Positions 16,072 through 64,000 of a stretch of DNA of 64,000 nucleotides are shown here, piece by piece. The stretch is from Eledone cirrhosa. Lineage: Eukaryota. The stretch's first letter is position 1; each line of letters opens with the position of its first letter. Below the pieces are notes generated by a model. The model was not told the origin of the DNA. It worked only from the letters and a program-made list of their open reading frames with translations, and made no database searches. Location: contig OZ024758.1 of assembly GCA_964016885.1 (NCBI GenBank), forward strand, positions 31,682,001-31,746,000, written 5' to 3'. The translations under genes were made by a program, and so were the position numbers.

Positions 16072-16359
16072 AGTAGGGAACACGGTAAAAACCTCCCAGC
16101 CCCACACTGTAAATGTGGTTGGTGTTAGGAAGGGCATCCAGCTGTGGAAAACCCGCCAGACAGTCCTATGCAAGCAATGACAACCACTCTTGCCTCAAGT
16201 GGGAAAACTCCCGTCCAAACCCATGCAAGCGTGGAACATGGACGTTAAACGATGATGATGATGATGATGATGATGATATATGTATTGAAGTTTCCGTTGA
16301 AAATTGAAAAAGTCATAGGAGTGAAGAGTGCTCTATGTAAGTACCAGAGCAAAATTTTA

Positions 16360-16567
16360 TGTATAATAAACAATACAATATAATTACCTCATTACCAGAG
16401 GTTTCCCGAATAAGATGAATACGAAAGAAACGTCCTCATTCGTTCGTCGGACAAGGCAATATATTTTATTGCCTTGTCCGACGAACGAATGAGGACGTTT
16501 CTTTCGTATTCGTCTTATTCGGGAAACCTCTGGTAATGAGGCAATTATATTGTATTGTTTATTATAC

Positions 16568-16570
<3 letters not shown>
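16360..16570. mobile_element. Fold-back element, family E (about 100-bp arms), next to (TA)n
   Basis: Near-perfect inverted repeat centred near 16464. Confidence 0.8.
16468..16546 (+). ncRNA. Type I hammerhead-like ribozyme with variant core CCGACGA (family E); mirror copy on the minus arm
   Basis: Stem I attgccttgt/atgaggcaat; stem II cgaatgaggacg/cgtcttattcg; GAAA; stem III ACC-tct-GGT; cleavage triplet GUA. Confidence 0.65.
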
Positions 16571-16601: not shown

Positions 16602-16968
16602 TTAAAGAGTTAAACAAGATTCAATGAGTACATCAAAGAATGAGTTTTACAGTAGATTGAAAGCACTCTACAAGAGATATTTTCCAGAGTTATTAATATT
16701 AAATTCAAATATTAATAAAATAGATGTTCTTGTGATTAATTAAATTTTATTATACATGTTAAATGGTTAAGATTTAAGATTTAATCAAGGTAGTACCTTG
16801 ATTAAATCTTAACCATTTAACATGTCAGGGTATGTCATGTATCATTTTATTTTATCTGATGAGGACATACTATTGAACTTGATTCAAGTACCTCTGAAAT
16901 ATGTATAATAAAATTTAATTGATCACAAGAACATCTATTTTATTTTATTAATATTTGAATTTAATATA
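16600..16968. mobile_element. Fold-back hammerhead element, family A (related copies 17770-18037 and 18835-19135)
   Basis: Outer inverted arms, an inner hairpin at 16754-16826, a hammerhead on the right arm, TA flanks. Confidence 0.78.
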
Positions 16969-17450: not shown

Positions 17451-17835
17451 ATATATATATATATATTAAAATATAAATATTAATAAAGTCTTCACCTTAA
17501 TATTATAAATTAAATATTTTCAAATCTAACCATTTAACTTTCGAAAAAAAAACCCACACTTTATGTTCCCCTCCTTATAAATCTTTTTCCAGTGGCTATC
17601 ACTGGCTGTTATGATTCATGAGACGTTTTCCTAGATATATTGTAGTATCATATATTTTAAAAACTTTTAGAACACTTACAGTATGCAACGTTTTTTCTTA
17701 CTCACACATTCTCTAATGAATTTATTACGTTTTCGCACTTTCACATCAATAGGATATAAGCAAAATCTTCTATCGGGTTAATCACTACCTTGATTAAATC
17801 TTAACCATTTAACATCTCAGGGTATGTCATGTATC

Positions 17836-17898
17836 ATTATATTTTGTCTGATGAGGACGTACTGTTGTACATCCGAAATATGTATAATAAAATGTAAT
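17836..17898 (+). ncRNA. Type I hammerhead ribozyme (family A element)
   Basis: Stem I attatattttgt/ataaaatgtaat (12 bp); CTGATGA; stem II GGAcGTAC-tgtt-GTACaTCC; GAAA; near-palindromic stem III ATATGTAT; cleavage triplet AUA. Related copies at 16856-16899 and 19040-19070. Confidence 0.8.
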
Positions 17899-18031
17899 TG
17901 ATCAAAAGAACATCTATTTTATTAATATTTATATTTTAATATTAATAACTCCAGAAAATAATTTTTCCGTTGAGTGCTTCCAATCTACTGTAAAACTCAT
18001 TCTTTGACATAATCATTGAATATTGTTTAAC

Positions 18032-18086
<55 letters not shown>

Positions 18087-18277
18087 TATACACATATAAT
18101 TGTTTCTACTTTTGGCACAAGGCCAGCAATTACCCAGTGTATTACTGGTACTTTATTTTATCGACGCCGTAAGGATGAAAGGCAAAGTTAACCTCGGCGG
18201 GATTTGAACTCAGAATGGCAAGGGCCGTAACTCTATGCGTCAAAGCATGGCGTCCGACCCTCTACCGATACTGCCAA

Positions 18278-18799: not shown

Positions 18800-18837
<38 letters not shown>

Positions 18838-19130
18838 TTGTTAAACAATATTCAATGATTATGTCAAAGAATGAGTTTTACAGTAGATTGGAAGCACTCA
18901 ACAGAAAAATAATTTTCTGGAGTTATTAATATTAAAATATAAATATTAATAAAATAGATGTTCTTTTGATCAATTACATTTTATTATACATATTAACCAT
19001 TTAACATCTCAGGGTATGTCATGTATCATTATATTTTGTCTGACGAGGACGTACTGTTGTACATCTGAAATATGTATAATAAAATGTAATTGATCAAAAG
19101 AACATCTATTTTATTAATATTTATATTTTA

Positions 19131-19181
<51 letters not shown>

Positions 19182-23836: not shown

Positions 23837-26800
23837 GGAAGACGTAAAATAAGAAAATTATAAAAATTAACTTACTTACTAAAATTTCACTCCAACTAAT
23901 TAGTTTCTGAAAGGGAATAAACATGGTTTCCAAATAGAAAACATGGAGAAGCCATTTCGTCATCAGGAAGTCGTTGTCAGCTAAGATCCCTGGCGATGCG
24001 TGGACACAGGGAACTTATACAAAAATAATTCAGTGGATGGAAAAAAGCAAGCGTGGACTAAATTCCAAGACATTAAAAAAAATCACTGCCTACTTGATCG
24101 GTCGCAAATTCAAAAGAATCAATCACGTAACATCGAGGTTAATCAGTGAGGAGTGGGGTGTTAAAAAGACAGTAGCTAAACTGTTACTATGAACTATAAC
24201 AGTAATTTTGGCAAATTTTTGCTCAACAAAATAATTTGGAGATAATTATAAAGAATTAGTATATCTACCAACATATATATACAGAAGTATACCTATGCAA
24301 GCAAATATATAGGTTTTGTCTTAGTAACTTTGTGGTTCAATGTATGGGGATGCAGAACAATTATATGAAAGACGTAAAATAAGAAAATGATAAAAATTAA
24401 CTTACTTACTAAAATTTCACTCCAACTAATTAGTTTCTGAAAGGGAATAAACATGGTTTCCAAATAGAAGCCAATTTAGTCCACGCTTGCTTTTTTCCAT
24501 CCACTGAATTATTTTTGTATAAGTTCCCTGTGTCCACGCATCGCCAGGGATCTTAGCTGAGAACGACTTCCTGGTGACGAAATGGCTTCTCCATGTTTTC
24601 TATTTGGAAACCATGTTTATTCCCTTTCAGAAACTAATTAGTTGGAGTGAAATTTTAGTAAGTAAGTTAATTTTTATAATTTTCTTATTTTACGTCTTTC
24701 ATATAATTGTTCTGCATCCCTTTGCATTGAACCACAAAGTTACTAAGACAAAACCTATATATTTGCTTGCATAGGTATACTTCTGTATATATATATATAT
24801 ATGTTGGTAGATATATATATATATATATATAAAAAGAATTAGTATAAGAAAGTGAGGTTTTTTTAGTTGTTTTTTTTTAACAAAATGAAAAATAAACGAG
24901 GTGTCCTACACGAGTGAAAGTATAAGGGAAAAAAATGGAATCGAAAATACAACTGAGTCTTTTTTTTTTTTAAATGTATATTTATTTGGTTCCTTTACCG
25001 GCTTCGCAGTTCTTCTGCTTTTCAAAAAGTAGGATTGAGATGGAGGGTTTGTGGTTTTTTTCCTCCATCTCAGTCCTACTTTTGAAAAGCACTGCGAAAC
25101 CGGTAAAGGAACCAAATAAATATATATTTAAAAAAAAAAAGACTCCAGTTGCATTTTCGATTTCATATTTTTTCCTTTATATATATATATATATCGCTAT
25201 TTCAGGACACCAATTCTAATTTTCATTTTTGCTGGACCGGCAACCGCTCTGTATAATCGGTTCCTGATTATTACTGGAATTATATAATAATCCAACATTC
25301 ATAATTTTCAGCAAGCAAGGAGAGTGCTAAGCTCTGAGGAGTACCAACAGTATGAAACAGGGATCTGTCAGCTTATATCCCTTTGTTTGCTGAAAACAGA
25401 AGTGACATAGTCACTACTTTAAAACAATAGTGTAAGGTCTTCAAAATGCTTTTAATTAAGCATACAGTGTATTGCAAAATACACTATATATACATTGATA
25501 TAAAATAAAAATGGTTTTATAAAGATAGCTTCCATTTATTAATGTATCGGTGGTCGTGTGGATTGTTGGACTTTCTACTACGCTTAGGTAACGGGTTCGA
25601 TCTCCAATATTTTAGGGCGGTGGATTGACAGTATCAGTAGAAGGTCGGACGCCATGCTTTGCAGCAAAGAGTTACGGCCCTTTATGGTCTGAGTTCAAAT
25701 CCCGCCGAGGTTAACTTTGCCTTTCATCCTTACGGGGTCGATAAAATAAAGTACCAGTCATGCACTGGGTTATTGCTGGCCTTGTGCTAAACGTAGAAAT
25801 AATTTATTAATATTATTAATATATATATATATATAATTGTTTCTACTTTTGGCACAAGGCCATCAATTATCCCAGTGCATTACTGGTACTTTATTTTATT
25901 GACCTCGTAAGGATGAAAGGCAAAGTCAACCTCGGCGGGATTTGAACTCAGATCGTAAAGGGACGTAACTATGCTGGAAAGCATGGTGTCTGACCCTCTA
26001 CCGATACTGCCAATCCACATATATAATGAAGAATGGTTTTCCGAAGAGAAACAGTTAAATAAGATACCCACCTACTGAAAGTTCAAATTTATTTTATATA
26101 GAAATGTCATCTACAGAATTTATAAAGTGATAAATAACATGCATTCAAATAGACTCAATTTTGTTTTTAATCCCCGTTTGAGTCGGTCTGTAGTCAAAGA
26201 TGATTTGTGTACAATTTAGTCCAACCGCAATGTAGAGGTCCGTTCATTGGTTCAAATATACACAATTGTTGTTTAACTACAAGTAAACCTGTTATCAATG
26301 CATCCCGTCTTTTTGTATATCTAGGACTACATTATTTAACAAGTATTTTGTTTTACGAAGGAGATTGTATAAAGAAATGTGAAATAAAATTTTATGGGAT
26401 ATAACTTTATTTAACTAATGTAGAGTTATTTCCCTTAGCATGAAACCCACACCACATTAGTTTCTTTCTATACAATCATTCGACCTGCTAGAAACGGTAA
26501 AGAAATCTTTTCTGAAATCCTAACGTAACGCCTTTAAAATGGAAGATCACAACAAACAATATCACTGATTGGCTCTTTTTTGGGTGTGTGTGTGTGTGTG
26601 TGTGTGTAGTCTATTTCTTCGCCCACCTATTCCTGCAAGGGTCATGAGGGCAGAGTCCTGAAACTCCTTCCAATGGGACCCGTCAGAAGCAACTAATCCA
26701 GCTGGATTCCCAAGCATGACCAGCCTAGCTCATGGATGTTATCCAACTATCTTGCTCGGGGTCTACCTCTGGGTCTCTTCCCGGTTGGTTTTGCCCGTAC

Positions 26801-41949: not shown

Positions 41950-42093
41950 ATGGCGGCTTCAGTTTGTGGTGTTTTAGAACCGAACTTACAGGCCGAAATA
42001 GAATGCAGTAAAGTTCTAGTGGTCGGTGCTGGTGGTATAGGATGTGAACTGATGAAAAATCTCGTTCTTACCGGATTTACTAATATAGAAATC
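41950..42093 (+). CDS. UBA2: SUMO-activating enzyme subunit 2, coding exon 1
   Basis: [48 protein letters not shown]|gtgagt; E1 ThiF nucleotide-binding motif GAGGIGCE; in-frame TAG upstream fixes the start. Confidence 0.92.
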
Positions 42094-44671
42094 GTGAGTT
42101 CCCTTCATTAGTTCCTTTTGTACAACAATTTATATCACCCCGTTTTATATATAAATGTAACCAACCGGTTAGTGAAGACACAAAGAACTGGCAAATACTT
42201 CTCTTTCGTCCTAGTTGTTCACATAAATATATATGTTTAACATAAATAATATACTTTTCACCATAAAAACTTACCAGACGTTTTACTCATAGAATGCTTG
42301 GAAAAATATATATATAATTATATATAAACAATTGTTGAGATTAAAGATAGATTTGATTTGAAAACCTTGGTTCAGTAATATATATTGAGGTAGGGTAACT
42401 AGTTTAGTAATCTCACCTTGCTTCATAACTTTCTCAATAATGTATATTTTAAAATACATTGTATAAATTATAGTTCTTCCGTTCGTCTTCTCATTTACTG
42501 AATACTTTCCATTTGTGTTGGTCGTAGTTGAGATATAAACTTACCCCTAAACTCCCACATTTTATCAACATACCTTCCAATTTCATTTTGATAACATCAA
42601 TCAGGATATGAAAGATATATTCTTTTAATGTTACAATATTAAAGAAAATATATTAGATTTTAGATACATGAGAATATATTGGATTTTAGATACATGAGAA
42701 TAATGTCATTATTTTACAATTATGAATTGAATTGTAAAAAAACAAAATACCAACAAAAAAAACTTGTCTTAAACTAATCCCAACGACACTTTCAAATATG
42801 TATCTAAAATTTCATTTAAAAATATACATCATTAAGAAAGTTATGAAGAAACATAGTGGAGGTCGGGGAGACACTAAACTAGTTATATTTATTTAATGGT
42901 TAATGAAGTATTCTATTCATGTTTACACAAAAAGTGTTCATTAAAGAAAGATGAAAGATTTTTGCATAAAAATTGGTAATATGTTTACTTATTTTGAAAA
43001 AATAACATTTTTTGTCGTTGTCCAGTAGTTGGATGTAGAGAATTGCCTGCTTAATAATTTACTGTTGATGTCCTTTAGACAAGCTGCAGGCATTGACATG
43101 GCTAAACATTCCTTATATTACCAATGAAAACTTCGGCGGGATTTGAACTCAGGCCCTTTATGGTCCGAGTTCAAATCCCGCCGAGGTTAACTTTGCCTTT
43201 CATCCTTACAGGGTCGATAAAATAAAGTACCAGTAGTGTACTGGATAATTGCTGGCCTTGTGCCAAAAGTAGAAACAATTATATTCCCAATGAAAGACAT
43301 TGTCTATTATTTTCAAATTATTTCGAAAATAATCAAAAATTAAAAACGATTAAATAAAATAATTTCTTTGGAATATGACTTAATAAAGGTTCTTACATGA
43401 AGTTATGATATTTAGATATATATAAACAGTTTTATATGAGAATCAGAGTCGGGTTGGGATAAATAGGGTTGATTTCCAGTGGACACCAATGGTCTCCTAC
43501 TTCACTTGATCCGGGACTAAGATAGAAACACTATCACGCACGGATTGGAATCGTTTCGATTTTCAATTGTCAATTTATTTCGGTTTTGAAATTACAGTAA
43601 AATTCAATAAACAGGCAAAGAACAGAATAAAACAATGACGAGGGTGAATGGCAAGCGAAACTGGCGGTAGCATATAATGAAACCTTTGTGGTTATTATAA
43701 CCGAAACCGGTAAATTTGGATGAATACTGTGTAATTAAATTGCCAAAACGAATAAATTGATGTTTCCAACTATATAAACCACTCAGTCGCTTCTAATTAA
43801 AAGACAACAATAAAAATTGCGATTCCTCCAACAATATTTTGTCTTTCCTCATCATTTTACTGACCACATATCGTTTCATCCTGAGAACATATAATTCCCT
43901 ACAATTGTTTTATACCAGGAAGGAAATACAACTGTATGTATATCAAATGCCTGAACTATGTATATTGAGCTACTCAAATGTGGACACTATTTCCCCCCCC
44001 AAATAATAAACCCAAACAAACACAAATTATTTAATCTAAGAGATATTTTATAAATAAAAAAAAAATGTGAATCATAAAGAAGACATGTTCGGTTATTTTT
44101 CTACGAAATGTATGTAAATGAATTTACTGATTCGTTTCGGTAATTCCTGAAAGCCAAGTTAGATTTTTATGTTACCCATTATTGCTGGTGCCAAATATAA
44201 TTGCGCCACTTCTAATTTTACCAAAACAACTTGCAAATTATTTTTAAAAAAAGGTAGTAAAATTAGATGAAAACATCGCAATTAAAAATTGAAACAAGTC
44301 TAAATAGGAATAAATAAAATGAGTCGATTCTGCAGCTGGTTTCCCGCTCTTGTTTATTTTTCAAAGCTGCTATGGGATTTCCACGTTTTCAACACCAGAG
44401 ATTCAGTTTTTTTATTTTTTTAAATTGATTTTAGTCATTAGACTACGGTCATACTCGAAGTCGATCAGATTTACTTTATCGATTTTTTTTTTTCTTCGAA
44501 CTGCTAAATTATGACACACACACATATATATATAGGAAAAGTATGAACCCGACGGCAGAGCTCAAGCAGTTTCGACTTACCCACTCTACTACCCTAAGTA
44601 TTGAGTACTCTGGTGCCTTATGGTCCATCTGGTTCCTTACCACAACTCACTCGTTATATATATATATATAT

Positions 44672-45112
44672 GATATTAACAAATGGAAACTATATTTATA
44701 AAACCATATTTATTTCATTATACATATTTCAAGGACACCAAGTTAAATTATGGTGTGCTTTCATCAGATAAAATATAATATAGAGCAGTTTTATAAATAA
44801 ATATTGACATACCCTTAAAGAATGCAACTGTTACTGTCGGAGCTTCCAACAGTAATGGTTGCATTCTTTAAGGGTATGTCAATATTTATTTATAAAACTG
44901 CTCTATATTATATTTTATCTGATGAAAGCACACCATAATTTAACTTGGTGTCCTTGAAATATGTATAATGAAATAAATATGGTTTTATAAATATAGTTTC
45001 CATTTGTTAATATCGTATTTTTACTCCAATTATTTGTTGAGTGCTTTATATCAGTTATAAAAATATTTGCTTGTTGTATCACAACAATTTAAATAGAACT
45101 TTTACATTTAAA
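44672..45112. mobile_element. Fold-back hammerhead element, family C (second copy)
   Basis: Arms of about 170 bp centred near 44843, one-sided extension, TA flanks. Confidence 0.85.
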
Positions 45113-45121
45113 AATATATAT

Positions 45122-45520
45122 AAAACCAAAGATTAATATGGTTCATTGATTATTCAATGACTATAGTTTTACAATAGATTAAAAGCACTCTACAAGAACG
45201 TTTTCTGGAGTTATTAATATTATTCAGAATATTAATAAATGAAGACATTCACATAATCAAAATATGTTTTATTATATATATTTCGAAGGTACTGTGCTGT
45301 TTTTTCAGTACGTCCTCATCAGATAAAATACATGAATTGATGTATGACATACCTCAACTGTCTGGATGGTTCAATTCCAGTATTGGTAGTATCAGTTCAT
45401 GTATTTTATCTGACGAGGACGTACTGAAAAAAACAGCACAGTACCTCCGAAATATATATAATAAAACATATATTTTGATTATGTGAATGTCTTCATTTAT
45501 TAATATTCTGAATAATATAT
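45122..45520. mobile_element. Fold-back hammerhead element, family B
   Basis: Inverted arms around a short spacer; homologous to 18278-18606 in opposite orientation. Confidence 0.85.
45400..45470 (+). ncRNA. Type I hammerhead ribozyme (family B element); mirror copy at 45281-45322
   Basis: ttttat-CTGACGA-GGAcGTACTG..CAGTACcTCC-GAAA-TATATA-TA-ataaaa. Same family at 18282-18323 (-) and 18406-18448 (+). Confidence 0.78.
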
Positions 45521-45833
45521 ATATATATGATAAGGTTCTGCTTAATTTATGTTTAACACATTTGTCCTACAAGACATTTGGTCAACACGAGGCTATATGA
45601 CACTTGTTCATGGTGCCACACAGTTAAGGGGACACTGCCATGCCTGCACCTATGTGCAATATATACTATTTACTTCATTTTACGTCCCTTTATGGTCTCA
45701 GTTCAAATCCCGCCGAGGTTAACTTTGCCTTTCATCCTTATGGGGTCGATAAAATAAAGTACCAGTAATGCACTGGGTAATTGCTGGCCTTGTGCCAAAA
45801 GTAGAAACAATTATTTACTTCCTTTTAATGACA

Positions 45834-45869
<36 letters not shown>

Positions 45870-46237
45870 AAAGGAAAAGAATGACTTGTAGTTGGTATTC
45901 TATAACAATTTAATTTTATAGTTTTACTATGTAGATCTAATTAGATCTACATAGTAAAACTATAAAATTAAATTGTTATAGAATACCAACTACAAGTCAT
46001 TCTTTTCCATTTTTCATATATACCTAACTGTACCAAGGATTTCACATATTTTCCAATATATATATATATATATTGCACAACCGTATCTGCTGGTGTTCAA
46101 AACATTGTACTTCAAGTACACATTGAAAAAAAAAAATGCTTTGTTTCCATAATTCTGGAAAGCTGAGTTAGATTTTTACAATTCTCATCCAATAATAGTC
46201 TCATTTTAAAATTTGATGCTTCACATACGTATATATA

Positions 46238-49167: not shown

Positions 49168-50403
49168 ATATATATATACATTTTGATATCTGGCCCGTAG
49201 TGTTCTATGTTCAGGATGATATAGTTCTCTATGGTATTACACTTTGCTGATTAAGGTGAGCCAGTCAGTATAGCCAGCTACCAAATCCTGGGAAGTGTGA
49301 AACATCCTGGCCAACTCAGGTGGCCTAAGTAAGGCAGTGATACCTTTGATTGGAGGAACTGCCATCCGAAGGCACTAACCAAATTATTGAATTCCTTAGT
49401 GGTATCCACAAACCTGCTCTCGTGACAATTGTGACCAGCATGGTGAGTATTAGCCACATCCCTAAAGTAATATGGTGACACAATCAAAGCAATGACCTTC
49501 ACTCTCCATCAGCTTTTAGGAAAGAGTAGTGGATACTAAGAATCTGTTGGTTAGAACAGGCTACCTGAAGACATTTAAATAAGATTGGAGATGATAGACT
49601 CAATCAGCTAGAAACAGAACTCGAAAGTTTTGGGATGACTAAAGGAGAGGCATTTTACTCTTTTATTCCCCTATAAAGCTGAACCCTCTAGAATTCCTGC
49701 CATGCCTACATTTTCCCTGCAGTCATCAACCTATAGAAGTTCAAACGTAAAATCAATCTTGAGTCTAGGAAAACCTACTGTTGTCATGGATATTACTCCT
49801 CTTTCAGCTAAATTTTAAAAACACACCTTAACCCTTTAGCATTTAAACCAGCTGTATCTGGCCACAATTCCTTCATCTCTTTCTGTTCAAACCGGCTGTA
49901 ACCGTCCACTTATACTGATGTTAATGTATCAAAATAATTATCAAAATCTCAGATTCAATGTTATGAGAGGTAAAGACTTTACCATGAAAATATAGCAAAT
50001 ATAATGTAAATGGTAAAGGATTAATAAATTAATATCATACTTGTATGTATTCCACGACTAATGAATCTGTCTGTAATAATTGCTATATAAAATATTGAGT
50101 CCAACTACTGGTGCTATAAATCAATATTTCTGAAAGAGTTCATTTTCATTTACTTTTATTTCATACTGGCGATGTTATTTACAATTATTCATCATCATCA
50201 TCATCACTGTAAAACTTTTCTTTTCCATGCTTGCATGGGTTAGTCATGTACTGAGGGTAAACTTATTGGTACACTGCATTTTTGGTTTGGTTTCTGTGGC
50301 TGGATAGCCTCCCCAACACCAACTACTTTACAGACATTATTAGAAGCATTTTATCATGACTCTAACCCTACTACGTTACAGGGGCAACTTGGTGCTTTTT
50401 GTC

Positions 50404-52970
50404 TTGGCACCAACACTACTGCCTTACAGTGTGAACAGCTTGCTTTCTGTTATGGCACCAACATTACTGCCTTACAGTGTGGACAGCTTGCTTTCTGTTG
50501 TGGCACCAACACTACTGGCTTATAGTGTGGACAGCTTGCTTTCTGTTGTGGCACCAACACTACTGGCTTATAGTGTGGACAGCTTGCTTTCTGTTATGGC
50601 ACCAACACTACTGCCTTACAGTGTGGACAGCTTGCTTTCTGTTGTGGCACCAACACTACTGCCTTACAGTGTGGACAGCTTGCTTTCTGTTGTGGCACCA
50701 AAACTACTGCCTTACAGTGTGGACAGCTTGCTTTCTGTTGTGGCACCAACACTACTGCCTTACAGTGTGGACAGCTTGCTTTCTGTTATGGCACCAACAC
50801 TACTGGCTTATAGTGTGGACAGCTTGCTTTCTGTTATGGCACCAACACTACTGCCTTACAGTGTGGACAGCTTGCTTTCTGTTGTGGCACCAACACTACT
50901 GGCTTACAGTGTGGACAGCTTGCTTTCTGTTGTGGCACCAACACTACTGCCTTACAGTGTGGACAGCTTGCTTTCTGTTGTGGCACCAACACTACTGCCT
51001 TACAGTGTGGACAGCTTGCTTTCTGTTGTGGCACCAACACTACTGCCTTACAGTGTGGACAGCTTGCTTTCTGTTGTGGCACCAACACTACTGCCTTACA
51101 GTGTGGACAGCTTGCTTTCTGTTATGGCACCAACACTACTGGCTTACAGTGTGGACAGCTTACTTTCTGTTGTGGCACCAACACTACTGCCTTACAGTGT
51201 GGACAGCTTGCTTTCTGTTATGGCACCAACACTACTGGCTTACAGTGTGGACAGCTTGCTTTCTGTTGTGGCACCAACACTACTGGCTTATAGTGTGGAC
51301 AGCTTGCTTTCTGTTGTGGCACCAACACTACTGGCTTATAGTGTGGACAGCTTGCTTTCTGTTGTGGCACCAACACTACTGCCTTACAGTGTGGACAGCT
51401 TGCTTTCTGTTGTGGCACCAACACTACTGCCTTACAGTGTGGACAGCTTGCTTTCTGTTGTGGCACCAACACTACTGCCTTACAGTGTGGACAGCTTGCT
51501 TTCTGTTATGGCACCAACACTACTGGCTTACAGTGTGGACAGCTTACTTTCTGTTGTGGCACCAACACTACTGCCTTACAGTGTGGACAGCTTGCTTTCT
51601 GTTATGGCACCAACACTACTGGCTTACAGTGTGGACAGCTTGCTTTCTGTTGTGGCACCAACACTACTGGCTTATAGTGTGGACAGCTTGCTTTCTGTTG
51701 TGGCACCAACACTACTGGCTTATAGTGTGGACAGCTTGCTTTCTGTTGTGGCACCAACACTACTGCCTTACAGTGTGGACAGCTTGCTTTCTGTTGTGGC
51801 ACCAACACTACTGCCTTACAGTGTGGACAGCTTGCTTTCTGTTATGGCACCAACACTACTGGCTTACAGTGTGGACAGCTTACTTTCTGTTGTGGCACCA
51901 ACACTACTGGCTTATAGTGTGGACAGCTTGCTCTCTGTTGTGGCACCAACACTACTGCCTTACAGTGTGGACAGCTTGCTTTCTGTTGTGGCACCAACAC
52001 TACTGGCTTACAGTGTGGACAGCTTGCTTTCTGTTATGGCACCAACACTACTGGCTTATAGTGTGGACAGCTTGCTCTCTGTTGTGGCACCAACACTACT
52101 GGCTTACAGTGTGGACAGCTTGCTCTCTGTTGTGGCACCAACACTACTGCCTTACAGTGTGGACAGCTTGCTTTCTGTTGTGGCACCAACACTACTGGCT
52201 TACAGTGTGGACAGCTTACTTTCTGTTGTGGCACCAACACTACTGGCTTACAGTGTGGACAGCTTACTTTCTGTTGTGGCACCAACACTACTGCCTTACA
52301 GTGTGGACAGCTTGCTTTCTGTTGTGGCACCAACACTACTGGCTTACAGTGTGGACAGCTTACTTTCTGTTGTGGCACCAACACTACTGCCTTACAGTGT
52401 GGACAGCTTGCTTTCTGTTGTGGCACCAACACTACTGCCTTACAGTGTGGACAGCTTGCTTTCTGTTGTGGCACCAACACTACTGGCTTACAGTGTGGAC
52501 AGCTTGCTCTCTGTTGTGGCACCAACACTACTGCCTTACAGTGTGGACAGCTTGCTTTCTGTTGTGGCACCAACACTACTGCCTTACAGTGTGGACAGCT
52601 TGCTCTCTGTTGTGGCACCAACACTACTGCCTTACAGTGTGGACAGCTTGCTTTCTGTTGTGGCACCAACACTCCTGGCTTATAGTGTGGACAGCTTGCT
52701 TTCTGTTGTGGCACCAACACTACTGCCTTACAGTGTGGACAGCTTGCTTTCTGTTGTGGCACCAACACTACTGCCTTACAGTGTGGACAGCTTACTTTCT
52801 GTTGTGGCACCAACACTACTGCCTTACAGTGTGGACAGCTTGCTCTCTGTTGTGGCACCAACACTACTGCCTTACAGTGTGGACAGATTGCTTTCTGTTA
52901 TGGTACCAACACTACTGCCTTATAGTGTGGACAGCTTGCTCTCTGTTGTGGCACCAACACTACTGCCTTA
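50404..52970. repeat. 48-bp minisatellite, about 53 copies, in UBA2 intron 1
   Basis: Unit tggcaccaacactactg(c/g)ctta(c/t)agtgtggacagcttgctttctgttg. Confidence 0.97.
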
Positions 52971-53350
52971 GAGTTTACAAAATATCTTTTTCATTGTACT
53001 TTGTATTTTCTCCTGTTTGTGAATATTTCATAAAACATACTGGTATGTCTTTTACTGCCTAGACCTTGTGAACCAAAGATGCATTGACACGTTTTTGTGT
53101 AGTTAGTGAAGCACAGGTCAACACAAAGTAAATATACTAAATTTGATTAAAATACTATTTCATATATATGGGGGGGGGGGTTCAAAATTTAGCATGCAAT
53201 CTCAGTCTGGTACAGTAAAATGGCAAAAACAGAACTGGCACTCAAAGAGTTGAGAATTAGTTAATCCCATGTAACAAGTGAGATGTAAAATGTATGATTT
53301 CAATGCTCTCTTGACATATTTAACAAAATGAATATAATTAACTGTTGTAG

Positions 53351-53434
53351 ATTGATTTGGATACCATTGATATCAGCAACCTGAACCGCCAGTTCCTTTT
53401 CCACAAAGAACATGTTGGGAAATCCAAGGCTGAA
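53351..53434 (+). CDS. UBA2: UBA2 coding exon 2
   Basis: [28 protein letters not shown]; tag/gtaagt. Confidence 0.95.
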
Positions 53435-61310: not shown

Positions 61311-61424
61311 AGTTTAGATTGAAACTGATTACCTGTTACATTGTAGGTTGGAAATATTGTATACTATGTTAGAGACTGATAGTAGGAAACCTGGGATTAG
61401 AGAAAGGGAGATATTTACATATAT

Positions 61425-64000
61425 ATATATATATATAACATACTGTATATAACATACTGTATATATAACATACTGTATATAACATACTGTATACAACATA
61501 CTGTATACAACATACTGTATATATAACATACTGTATATACAACATACTGTATATATAACATACTGTGTATATACAACATACTGTATATATAACATACTGT
61601 ATATATAACATACTGTATACAACATACTGTATATGTAACATACTGTATACAACATACTATATACAACATACTGTATACAACATACTGTATATAACATACT
61701 GTATATACAACATACTGTATATACAACATACTGTATATAACATACTGTATATATAACATACTGTATATACAACATACTGTATATACAACATACTGTATAC
61801 AACATACTGTATATACAACATACTGTATATACAACATACTGTATACAACATACTGTATACAACATACTGTATACAACATACTGTATATACAACATACTGT
61901 ATATACAACATACTGTATATAACATACTGTATACAACATACTGTATATATAACATACTATATACAACATACTGTATATATAACATACTATATACAACATA
62001 CTGTATATATAACATGTTATATACAACATACTGTATATAACATACTGTATATACAACATACTGTATATACAACATACTGTATACAACATACTGTATACAA
62101 CATACTGTATATACAACATACTGTATATACAATATACTGTATATAACATACTGTATATAACATACTGTATATACAATATACTGTATATAACATACTGTAT
62201 ATAACATACTGTATATACAACATACTGTATATACAACATACTGTATACAACATACTGTATATACAACATACTGTATATACAACATACTGTATATACAACA
62301 TACTGTATACAACATACTGTATATACAACATACTGTATATAGAACATACTGTATATACAACATACTGTATATACAACATACTGTATATACAACATACTGT
62401 ATACAACATACTGTATACAACATACTGTATATACAACATACTGTATATACAACATACTGTATATACAACATACTGTATATACAACATACTATATACAACA
62501 TACTCTATACAACACTTTATATACAACATACTGTATACAACATACTGTATATACAACATACTGTATATACAACATACTGTATATACAACATACTGTATAT
62601 ACAACATACTGTATATATAACATACTGTATGTAACATACTATACATATACAACAAACTGTATATAACATACTATATACAACATACTGTATATACAACATA
62701 CTGTATATATAACATACTGTATAAAACACTTTATATACAACATACTGTATATAACATACTGTATATAACATACTGTATATACAACATACTGTATATAACA
62801 TACTGTATATACAACATACTGTATACAACATACTGTATATACAACATACTATATATACAACATACTATATATACAACATACTGTATATAACATACTATAT
62901 ACAACATACTCTATACAACACTTTATATACAACATACTGTATATAACATACTGTATACAACATACTGTATATACAACATACTGTATATACAACATACTGT
63001 ATATACAACATACTGTATATACAACATACTGTATATACAACATACTGTATATACAACATACTGTATATACAACATACTGTATATAACATACTGTATATAC
63101 AACATACTGTATATACAACATATTGAATATATAACATACTGTATACAACACTTTATATACAACATACTGTATATAACATACTGTATACAACATACTGTAT
63201 ATAACATACTGTATATACAACATACTGTATACAACATACGGTATATATAACATACTGTATATATAACATACTGTATATATAACATACTGTATATAACATA
63301 CTGTATACAACATACTGTATATAACATACTGTATGTAACATACTATATATACAACATACTGTATATACAACATATATATATAACATACTGTATATACAAC
63401 ATACTGTATATAACATACTATATATATAACATACTATATATATAACATACTATATATATAACATACTATATATATAACATACTATATACAACATACTGTA
63501 TATATAACATACTATATACAACATACTGTATATATAACATACTATATATAACATACTGTATATATAACATACGATATACAACATACTGTATATATAACAT
63601 ACGATATACAACATACTGTATATATAACATACGATATACAACATACTGTATATATAACATACGATATACAACATACTGTATATATAACATACTATATACA
63701 ACATACTGTATATATAACATACTATATACAACATACTGTATATATAACATACGATATACAACATACTGTATATACAACATACTGTATATATAACATACTA
63801 TATACAACATACTGTATATACAACATACTGTATATATAACATACTATATACAACATACTGTATATATAACATACTATATACAACATACTGTGTATATAAC
63901 ATACTATATATATAACATACTATATACAACATACTGTATATATAACATACGATATACAACATACTGTATATATAACATACTATATACAACATACTGTATA
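61425..64000. repeat. 13-17-bp AT-rich minisatellite running off the right edge
   Basis: Unit aacatactgtat(at)(at)ac. Confidence 0.97.

What the first reader, a model, noticed from the sequence alone, without database searches (positions are those of the whole stretch)
44672..45520. Second cluster of the same hammerhead fold-back families in UBA2 intron 1, showing dispersal and covariation
Seen: a family C element (44672-45112) and a family B element (45122-45520) sit back to back, about 27 kb from their homologues and in opposite orientation. The two arms of each copy are nearly identical to each other, while the two copies of a family differ clearly (stem II AGGcATACCA/TGGTATCCTT versus AAGcACACCA/TGGTGTCCTT; different central loop). 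Inference: the second arm is copied from the first at each insertion (fold-back priming or template switch) or is homogenised afterwards, which fits a retro-mechanism. The inner arm breakpoints are similar between copies, so an ancestral hairpin RNA template is also possible.
Basis: partly seen in the sequence, partly recalled or inferred. Interest (0 to 1): 0.75.

Follow-up and report, generated by a model that had tools for sequence, protein, structure and literature searches.

The report
Mirror retroelement copies stop at cap
These two mirror-image, ribozyme-bearing repeats in a gene intron are short copies of two Penelope-type jumping genes, and their relatives across the genome often stop at one base just behind a TATA box with an extra G in front, which suggests that both halves are likely copied from the capped start of one RNA rather than one half from the other.

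Summary
Observation confirmed. The two elements are head-to-head end copies of two coding Hydra-clade Penelope-like retrotransposons, inserted in (TA)n in UBA2 intron 1; the two clusters are not a segmental duplication. Arms pair by locus (one family C variant: both arms at 20 loci, one arm at 0; 7 expected by chance). Arm-from-arm copying, later homogenisation and a hairpin master fit poorly: junctions vary between loci, 120 of 124 classifiable pairs have one short and one tailed 3' end, and 7 junctions join arms that share no sequence. In three families at least 32-59% of exact motif matches lack the genomic base before one position (+1), about 31 nt behind a TATA box in two of them. G precedes it in 513 of 1424 such cases (36%; 14-18% expected), the known sign of a reverse-transcribed mRNA cap. 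Likely mechanism: both cut DNA ends prime on one sense, capped RNA at two internal sites. No RNA data were available. The scan already noted twin priming and twin hairpins on other DNA of this genome; the extra G did not come up in my look-ups.

The parts
41950..42093 (+). Exon 1 of a SUMO-activating enzyme subunit 2 (UBA2/SAE2)-like gene; the next exon starts near 53351, so the finding lies in intron 1
44655..44671 (.). (TA)n target tract left of the family C element
44672..44841 (-). Family C short arm (about unit +15 to the short 3' end near +190), no tail
44713..44773 (-). Type I hammerhead motif in the C short arm
44839..45106 (+). Family C long arm (about unit +9 to +283), including the 3' tail 45024-45106
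44913..44973 (+). Type I hammerhead motif in the C long arm; predicted cleavage after 44967 (activity untested)
45023..45044 (+). First of two similar CTC...GAGyGC motifs, a few nt 3' of the short end (the second lies beyond the tail end in full-length copies); folding not above shuffles
45107..45124 (.). Degenerate TA-rich linker between the two tails (shared target tract)
45125..45390 (-). Family B long arm, from exactly unit +1 (45390, predicted transcription start) to the tail end +268; tail 45125-45216
45267..45328 (-). Type I hammerhead motif in the B long arm
45391..45518 (+). Family B short arm (unit +50 to the short 3' end +176)
45404..45466 (+). Type I hammerhead motif in the B short arm; predicted cleavage after 45460
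45515..45529 (.). (TA)n target tract right of the family B element

Best explanation
The two elements are independent head-to-head end copies of two coding Hydra-clade Penelope-like retrotransposons in a TA repeat, likely made when both cut DNA ends prime reverse transcription on one sense, probably capped, element RNA. Shown: the parent elements, two fixed 3' end positions, per-locus junctions, arms that share their source, and a pile-up of 5' ends at one base with an excess of G in front. Inferred: a TATA/initiator promoter starts the RNA at that base, about 330 nt before the ORF; the RT-endonuclease cuts both strands of (TA)n; one end primes at the short site and the other at the tail site about 92 nt further 3'; copying often runs to the RNA 5' end and reads the cap as C; host end joining links the two cDNA ends. 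Such short products lack the TATA box and would be dead-end copies of the 5' UTR. Each insertion leaves (TA)n on both sides, which would explain back-to-back clusters.
For: Parents: tandem pLTR-ORF-pLTR copies L123 and L124 (C), L121 and L122 (B) with Hydra motifs; nearest Atlas clusters are hypothetical or RT/GIY-YIG proteins, scores 0.92-0.94. Two ends: C +190/+283, B +176/+268; short+tail in 72 of 80 (C) and 48 of 66 (B) distinct divergent pairs, i.e. 120 of the 124 with both ends classifiable. One source per insertion: same-locus arm distance 0.013 versus 0.024 (C, 59 pairs) and 0.041 versus 0.060 (B, 45 pairs), 0 of 10000 permutations; C site +71 in both arms at 20 loci, one arm at 0, 7.0 expected; the two +71 groups show similar arm-arm divergence (p 0.9). 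Two separate cDNAs: 7 clear junctions (plus 1 borderline) of 82 join a short arm to a tail-only partner; the arm reaching +1 is the short one in 50 and the tailed one in 23 of those 82. RNA start: a base other than the genomic C precedes +1 in 213 of 360 (B), 593 of 1802 (C) and 618 of 1924 (A) exact matches; G share 0.38, 0.38, 0.34 versus 0.14-0.18 from unit composition or weak microhomology. Family A was tested after the prediction. TATA box at -32/-30 in 15 of 17 B read-through copies and at -31 in 13 of 20 A matches with C at -1. In vitro, an Anolis Penelope-like protein cuts and extends both strands and starts at two internal sites that bound the tail (PMC11167929).
Against: No RNA evidence for the start or the cap was obtained. 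An RT may add C without a cap. Some G bases are templated by the partner arm (G share 0.25 in templated junctions versus about 0.50 in untemplated ones, small and noisy classes). In family A the G share at -2 to -7 is already 0.20-0.25, and in B it is 0.30 at -2. Family C has no canonical TATA at -30 in most of 22 upstream sequences. B arms disagree at several shared sites (e.g. +105: both 10, one 5), from recurrent mutation or mixed templates. Subfamilies active at different times would also give concordant arms. One-sided deletion from a full palindrome can mimic unequal arms. Pfam gave no RT or GIY-YIG hit for 10 ORF pieces and the PDB sequence search none for one.
Confidence: 0.65

Rival explanations
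1. Fold-back copying (first reader; akin to the self-priming model): one cDNA is made from the tail end, folds back at its 3' end and is copied into the second arm; later deletions at the palindrome centre make the junctions unequal.
For: Explains arm concordance directly. Small snap-backs and palindromes centred on +1 exist (L040, L199, L200, L263, L274). Arkhipova et al. 2013 inferred self-priming on an antisense template from such palindromes (PMC3846280, passages).
Against: The tail-less arm is more often the one reaching +1 (50 versus 23 of 82 junctions) and cannot template the tail; 7 junctions have no shared sequence; solo short arms are joined straight to (TA)n; a fixed short end needs a second stop signal; an extra G on the sense 5' end fits a sense template.
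Confidence: 0.17
2. Twin priming on two different RNA molecules (for example one per subunit of a dimer), with arm concordance arising because one source locus dominates at any time.
For: Fits the two ends, both polarities and non-overlapping arms equally well; family B shows some one-arm variants at shared sites.
Against: 0 discordant loci at C +71; probability 1.3e-7 under independent draws for the 27 motif-picked loci, with similar apparent ages of the two groups; long divergent pairs share promoter-region variants.
Confidence: 0.12
3. A fixed hairpin RNA master, or gene conversion between arms after insertion.
For: Many copies have nearly the same length as the window copy, but these were picked by similarity to it.
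Against: No site separates short from tailed arms (Fisher p 0.32-1.0); the short/tail label needs 32 changes on the arm tree, no fewer than shuffled labels (poorly resolved tree); private variants are one-armed in 92 of 100 cases; divergent pairs lie from about 20 nt to 5 kb apart.
Confidence: 0.04
4. A DNA transposon (MITE/foldback) or a segmental duplication of one cluster.
For: Long inverted repeats and TA flanks resemble MITEs; a SINE lies near the B element in both clusters.
Against: Ends are asymmetric, parents encode RT and GIY-YIG motifs, no unique flank is shared between the clusters and the element order differs.
Confidence: 0.02

Closest known systems
Hydra clade of C-terminal EN+ Penelope-like elements (Craig et al. 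2021, PMC8557442; section 11 and passages read)
   Same: RW(R/K) and DKT motifs, CxCx5C linker, C-terminal GIY-YIG, hammerheads, (TA)n targeting, partial tandems, inverted 5'-truncated copy, tail at one end only.
   Different: The tail is about 92 nt against the 30-40 bp stated. The passages read do not describe a 5'-end pile-up at a TATA/initiator site, an extra G, or a one-short/one-tail rule. The supplementary family list was not seen and may include these families.
Poseidon_Ac (PAc) in vitro system (Frangieh et al. 2024, PMC11167929; parts 1-2 of 4 and passages read)
   Same: Both strands cut and extended, two internal RT start sites that bound the tail, AT-rich target, uncleaved RNA used as template (here 0 of 81 partner 5' ends fall at the hammerhead cut site).
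   Different: Other clade; there the start sites lie inside the ORF, here they lie in the predicted 5' UTR before the ATG; the text read does not address how inverted genomic insertions form.
Adineta vaga Penelope pLTRs (Arkhipova et al. 2013, PMC3846280; passages read)
   Same: Inverted pLTR with one-sided tail, palindromes at the junction, a putative TATA box with an initiator-like TCACT in the pLTR.
   Different: That paper proposed self-priming on an antisense template; the data here favour a sense template copied from two primers.
Extra G from reverse transcription of the m7G cap (LINE-1 and viral mRNA copies; PMC4038843, passages read, citing Gilbert 2005 and Volloch 1995, which were not read)
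   Same: An additional G before the RNA start in the DNA copy.
   Different: Described there for LINE-1-type and retroviral RT; not found for Penelope-like elements in my searches.
Metazoan type I / minimal hammerheads of PLEs (Cervera and de la Pena 2014, PMC4209133, passages read) and non-LTR retrozymes (bioRxiv 10.64898/2026.07.22.740005, part 1 of 5 read)
   Same: Type I fold with a short, palindromic helix III predicted to need a dimer.
   Different: Not tandem retrozyme arrays; family C has A-U rather than G-C at the first stem II pair; cleavage untested.

Membership tests
Hydra-clade Penelope-like elements | Single ORF with RT core and C-terminal GIY-YIG endonuclease | tested here: met
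   Motifs read in L123, L124, L125 (C) and L121 (B), all broken by stops or frameshifts; Atlas neighbours with RVT_1/GIY-YIG on 21-49% of members; Pfam itself gave no hit.
Hydra-clade Penelope-like elements | RWK-type motif and DKT in place of DKG | tested here: met
   An RWR-type motif (L121 translation; L124 read from the DNA; L125 has MWR) and DKT in both families.
Hydra-clade Penelope-like elements | CxCx5C linker; no CCHH cysteine pair between GIY and YIG | tested here: met
   CxCx5C in both families; at most one cysteine between the GIY-like and YIG-like motifs.
Hydra-clade Penelope-like elements | Hammerhead in the pLTR and insertion into (TA)n | tested here: met
Hydra-clade Penelope-like elements | Placement inside the Hydra clade in an RT phylogeny | not tested
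   No reference Hydra proteins were at hand.
Type I hammerhead ribozyme | Conserved core, stems I-III, cleavage triplet, covariation | tested here: met
   folding z -1.4 to -2.6 for three arms; no Rfam hit at gathering threshold.
Type I hammerhead ribozyme | Self-cleavage | not testable with these tools
   Needs an in vitro assay.
Non-LTR retrozyme | Head-to-tail tandem units, each with a hammerhead, non-coding | tested here: not met
   Units here are head-to-head and derive from coding elements.
MITE / foldback DNA transposon | Symmetric terminal inverted repeats and fixed internal structure | tested here: not met
   One-sided tail and variable junctions.
Pol II TATA/initiator promoter with capped transcript | TATA box near -31 and a pyrimidine-A start | tested here: inconclusive
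   Met in B and A, weak in C; the start itself was not observed in RNA.

The most novel reading that the evidence does not exclude
The commonest product of these Penelope-like elements is a strong-stop-like copy of their own capped 5' UTR: one RNA is reverse transcribed twice, from both ends of a cut TA repeat, down to the cap. The genome thus records thousands of events that map the promoter, fix the template as sense and capped, and overturn the antisense self-priming explanation of Penelope inverted repeats.
Probability: 0.45. Interest if true: 0.7.

Novelty: new member of a known kind. Interest (0 to 1): 0.5.

Why it matters
How Penelope-like elements, the sister group of telomerase, form their inverted and tandem insertions is stated as open in PMC8557442 and PMC11167929. 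The elements themselves are of a known kind. What this adds is countable genomic evidence on template polarity, on one RNA serving both arms, and on the RNA start, each with a direct experimental test.

Tried and rejected
Fixed 5' end of a non-autonomous mini-element: my first reading, rejected as ascertainment once motif searches showed longer copies and coding parents. Hammerhead-cleaved RNA as template: 0 of 42 (C) and 0 of 39 (B) partner 5' ends lie at the cut site. Empty-site test: no RNA holder listed, and the DNA contigs laid were swamped by repeat copies, so no verdict. Twin hairpin folding: z +0.72, +0.11 and -1.46, no thermodynamic support from single sequences. Pfam and PDB sequence searches of the parent ORFs were blank. 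The arm tree is mostly unresolved (4 of 69 inner branches starred). The automatic templated/untemplated classes mislabel 6 pure (TA)n flanks with A/T, and one with G, as untemplated (by eye). Two junctions in the tally are seen from both arms (L220/L221, L185/L251); removes duplicates. Look-ups in earlier findings by words for the cap G and by sequence returned nothing. Literature searches for a cap G or twin priming in Penelope-like elements listed no such paper (listings only for most hits).

Full report
Observation. Reading left to right: (TA)n, a family C short arm on the minus strand, a C long arm with a tail of about 85-90 nt, a TA-rich linker, the tail and long arm of family B on the minus strand, the B short arm, and (TA)n. 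All four arms carry a type I hammerhead. Across 10 window copies of three families, 7 of 9 stem II pairs change on both sides and 97% of cells pair. The site is intron 1 of a UBA2/SAE2-like gene. The genome is 3.0 Gb in 1796 contigs; earlier notes of the scan call it an octopus, which I did not test.

Not a duplication. The clusters at 17-19 kb and 45 kb share only repeat sequence, in a different order. The C copies are 87% alike, while the window copy has 98% relatives on other contigs; for B the figures are 92% and 95%. The first-look candidate counts were 1380 (C) and 2918 (B), 40 scored each.

What the families are. Exact 5' motifs occur 1802 (C) and 360 (B) times. In samples of 30, many copies run on upstream into an ORF. 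Tandem pLTR-ORF-pLTR copies exist for both families. Their broken ORFs show RWR-type, DKT, RT core, CxCx5C and GIY-YIG motifs, the features that define the Hydra clade in PMC8557442 (section 11). That paper also describes the inverted 5'-truncated copy, the one-sided tail and (TA)n targeting. In the parents the unit found in the window lies directly before the ATG, so it is the predicted 5' UTR part of the pseudo-LTR.

Arms pair by locus. Same-locus short-versus-tail distances are 0.0127 (C, 59 pairs) and 0.0408 (B, 45 pairs) against 0.0242 and 0.0599 between loci; 0 of 10000 permutations are as low, and no site separates the two sides. The C variant at +71 is in both arms at 20 loci and in one arm at none (7.0 expected in both if independent); 7 of the 59 loci had a gap or a third letter there and were set aside. 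Later homogenisation is unlikely, because variants private to one locus are one-armed in 30 of 33 (C) and 62 of 67 (B) cases. A hairpin master is unlikely, because junctions vary between loci and divergent pairs lie from about 20 nt to 5 kb apart.

Why not arm-from-arm copying. The 3' ends fall at two positions about 92 nt apart. Of 146 distinct divergent pairs, 124 had both ends classifiable and 120 of these combine one short and one tailed end. Among 82 junctions where one arm holds the +1 motif, that arm is the short one in 50, the tailed one in 23 and unclassified in 9; in 7 clear cases its partner consists of tail only and shares no sequence with it. Solo short arms joined to (TA)n also occur. 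A single cDNA folding back gives these only with extra one-sided deletions. Two primers on one RNA give them directly, and the Anolis protein cuts and extends both strands from two internal sites that bound the tail (PMC11167929). Earlier notes of this scan reached twin priming on other DNA of this genome; these are leads, and the counts above are my own.

The inner breakpoint. The genomic base before unit +1 is C. A different base stands there in 213 of 360 (B) and 593 of 1802 (C) exact matches; in the samples only 4 of 120 such loci were read-through copies. Partner 5' ends pile up from +1 to about +26. G makes up 81 of 213 and 223 of 593, against 0.14-0.18 from unit composition or weak microhomology weighting and 0.05-0.24 at positions -3 to -12. 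I then predicted the same for family A, whose window copy folds back at the same three bases: G was 209 of 618, with 1306 matches keeping C. The pooled figure is 513 of 1424. A TATA box lies at -32/-30 in 15 of 17 B copies and at -31 in 13 of 20 A copies; family C is only AT-rich there. An extra G before an RNA start is a described sign of an RT reading the m7G cap (PMC4038843, passages). A TATA box with an initiator-like TCACT was noted in Adineta pLTRs (PMC3846280), and the start site lies in the pLTR in Drosophila Penelope and Chlamys-3. The limits are real: part of the G is templated by the partner (share 0.25 in templated and about 0.50 in untemplated junctions), local G is higher in family A, an RT can add C without a cap (own knowledge), and no RNA run was available. 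The window's B long arm ends exactly at +1 without a G; the C arms stop at about +9 and +15.

Mechanism. Shown: parents, target, two 3' ends, per-locus junctions, shared source of the arms, a 5' edge with excess G. Inferred: transcription from a TATA/initiator promoter in the upstream pseudo-LTR; a cut on both strands of (TA)n; priming from both ends at the two sites near the RNA 5' end; copying to or near the cap; end joining with microhomology or short inserts. The products lack the TATA box and would be dead ends. None of 81 partner 5' ends lies at the hammerhead cut, which fits the in vitro finding that uncleaved RNA is the template. A similar short motif follows each 3' end in the parents, as earlier notes report, but it does not fold better than shuffles here.

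Verdict. A real feature and a new member of a known kind. The anatomy is in print, and the twin-priming reading was already noted by this scan elsewhere in the genome. The added value is the evidence for one sense, probably capped, template, which argues against the antisense self-priming model of PMC3846280 and can be tested by CAGE or 5'-RACE. My searches listed no paper with this signature for Penelope-like elements; subscription papers and the supplements of PMC8557442 were not seen. Interest 0.5.

Noticed in passing
window 16609-16967, 17781-18040, 18831-19140: A third family (A) of the same build; its 5' pile-up starts with the same three bases as B and C and has a TATA box at -31. No ORF with the searched motifs was found upstream in 20 loci, so its coding parent is not shown.
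   Followed up: partly
window 16359-16569 and 45859-46022: Further near-perfect fold-backs in (TA)n (97% and 99%) that do not match families A, B or C; the first carries a CTGA-like core variant that my scan did not list.
   Followed up: no
window 24260-24815, 24921-25181, 25620-26018: More local inverted repeats of other sequence.
   Followed up: no
window 45680-45815, 43154-43284, 18034-18276 and others: A very abundant short interspersed repeat ending in TA/CA tracts (recalled as an octopus SINE; name from no call); one copy abuts the truncated short arm of the B element at 18277.
   Followed up: no
stem II of all 10 hammerheads in alignment A1: A C-C mismatch at the fourth stem II position is kept across three families while the flanking pairs covary.
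   Followed up: partly
L123 5392-6258, L124 5572-6804, L121: Asparagine-rich stretches between RT thumb and endonuclease, like the N-rich inserts described for Adineta Penelope elements (PMC3846280).
   Followed up: no
L106/L107 (G000:C1:226342956-226343007): A 29-nt tandem repeat of the first bases of the B unit, each copy preceded by G, as if the RT restarted after reaching the RNA 5' end (part of the G may be templated).
   Followed up: no
window 50344-53062 and 61329-64000: Long tandem and low-complexity repeats that produce spurious long ORFs.
   Followed up: no
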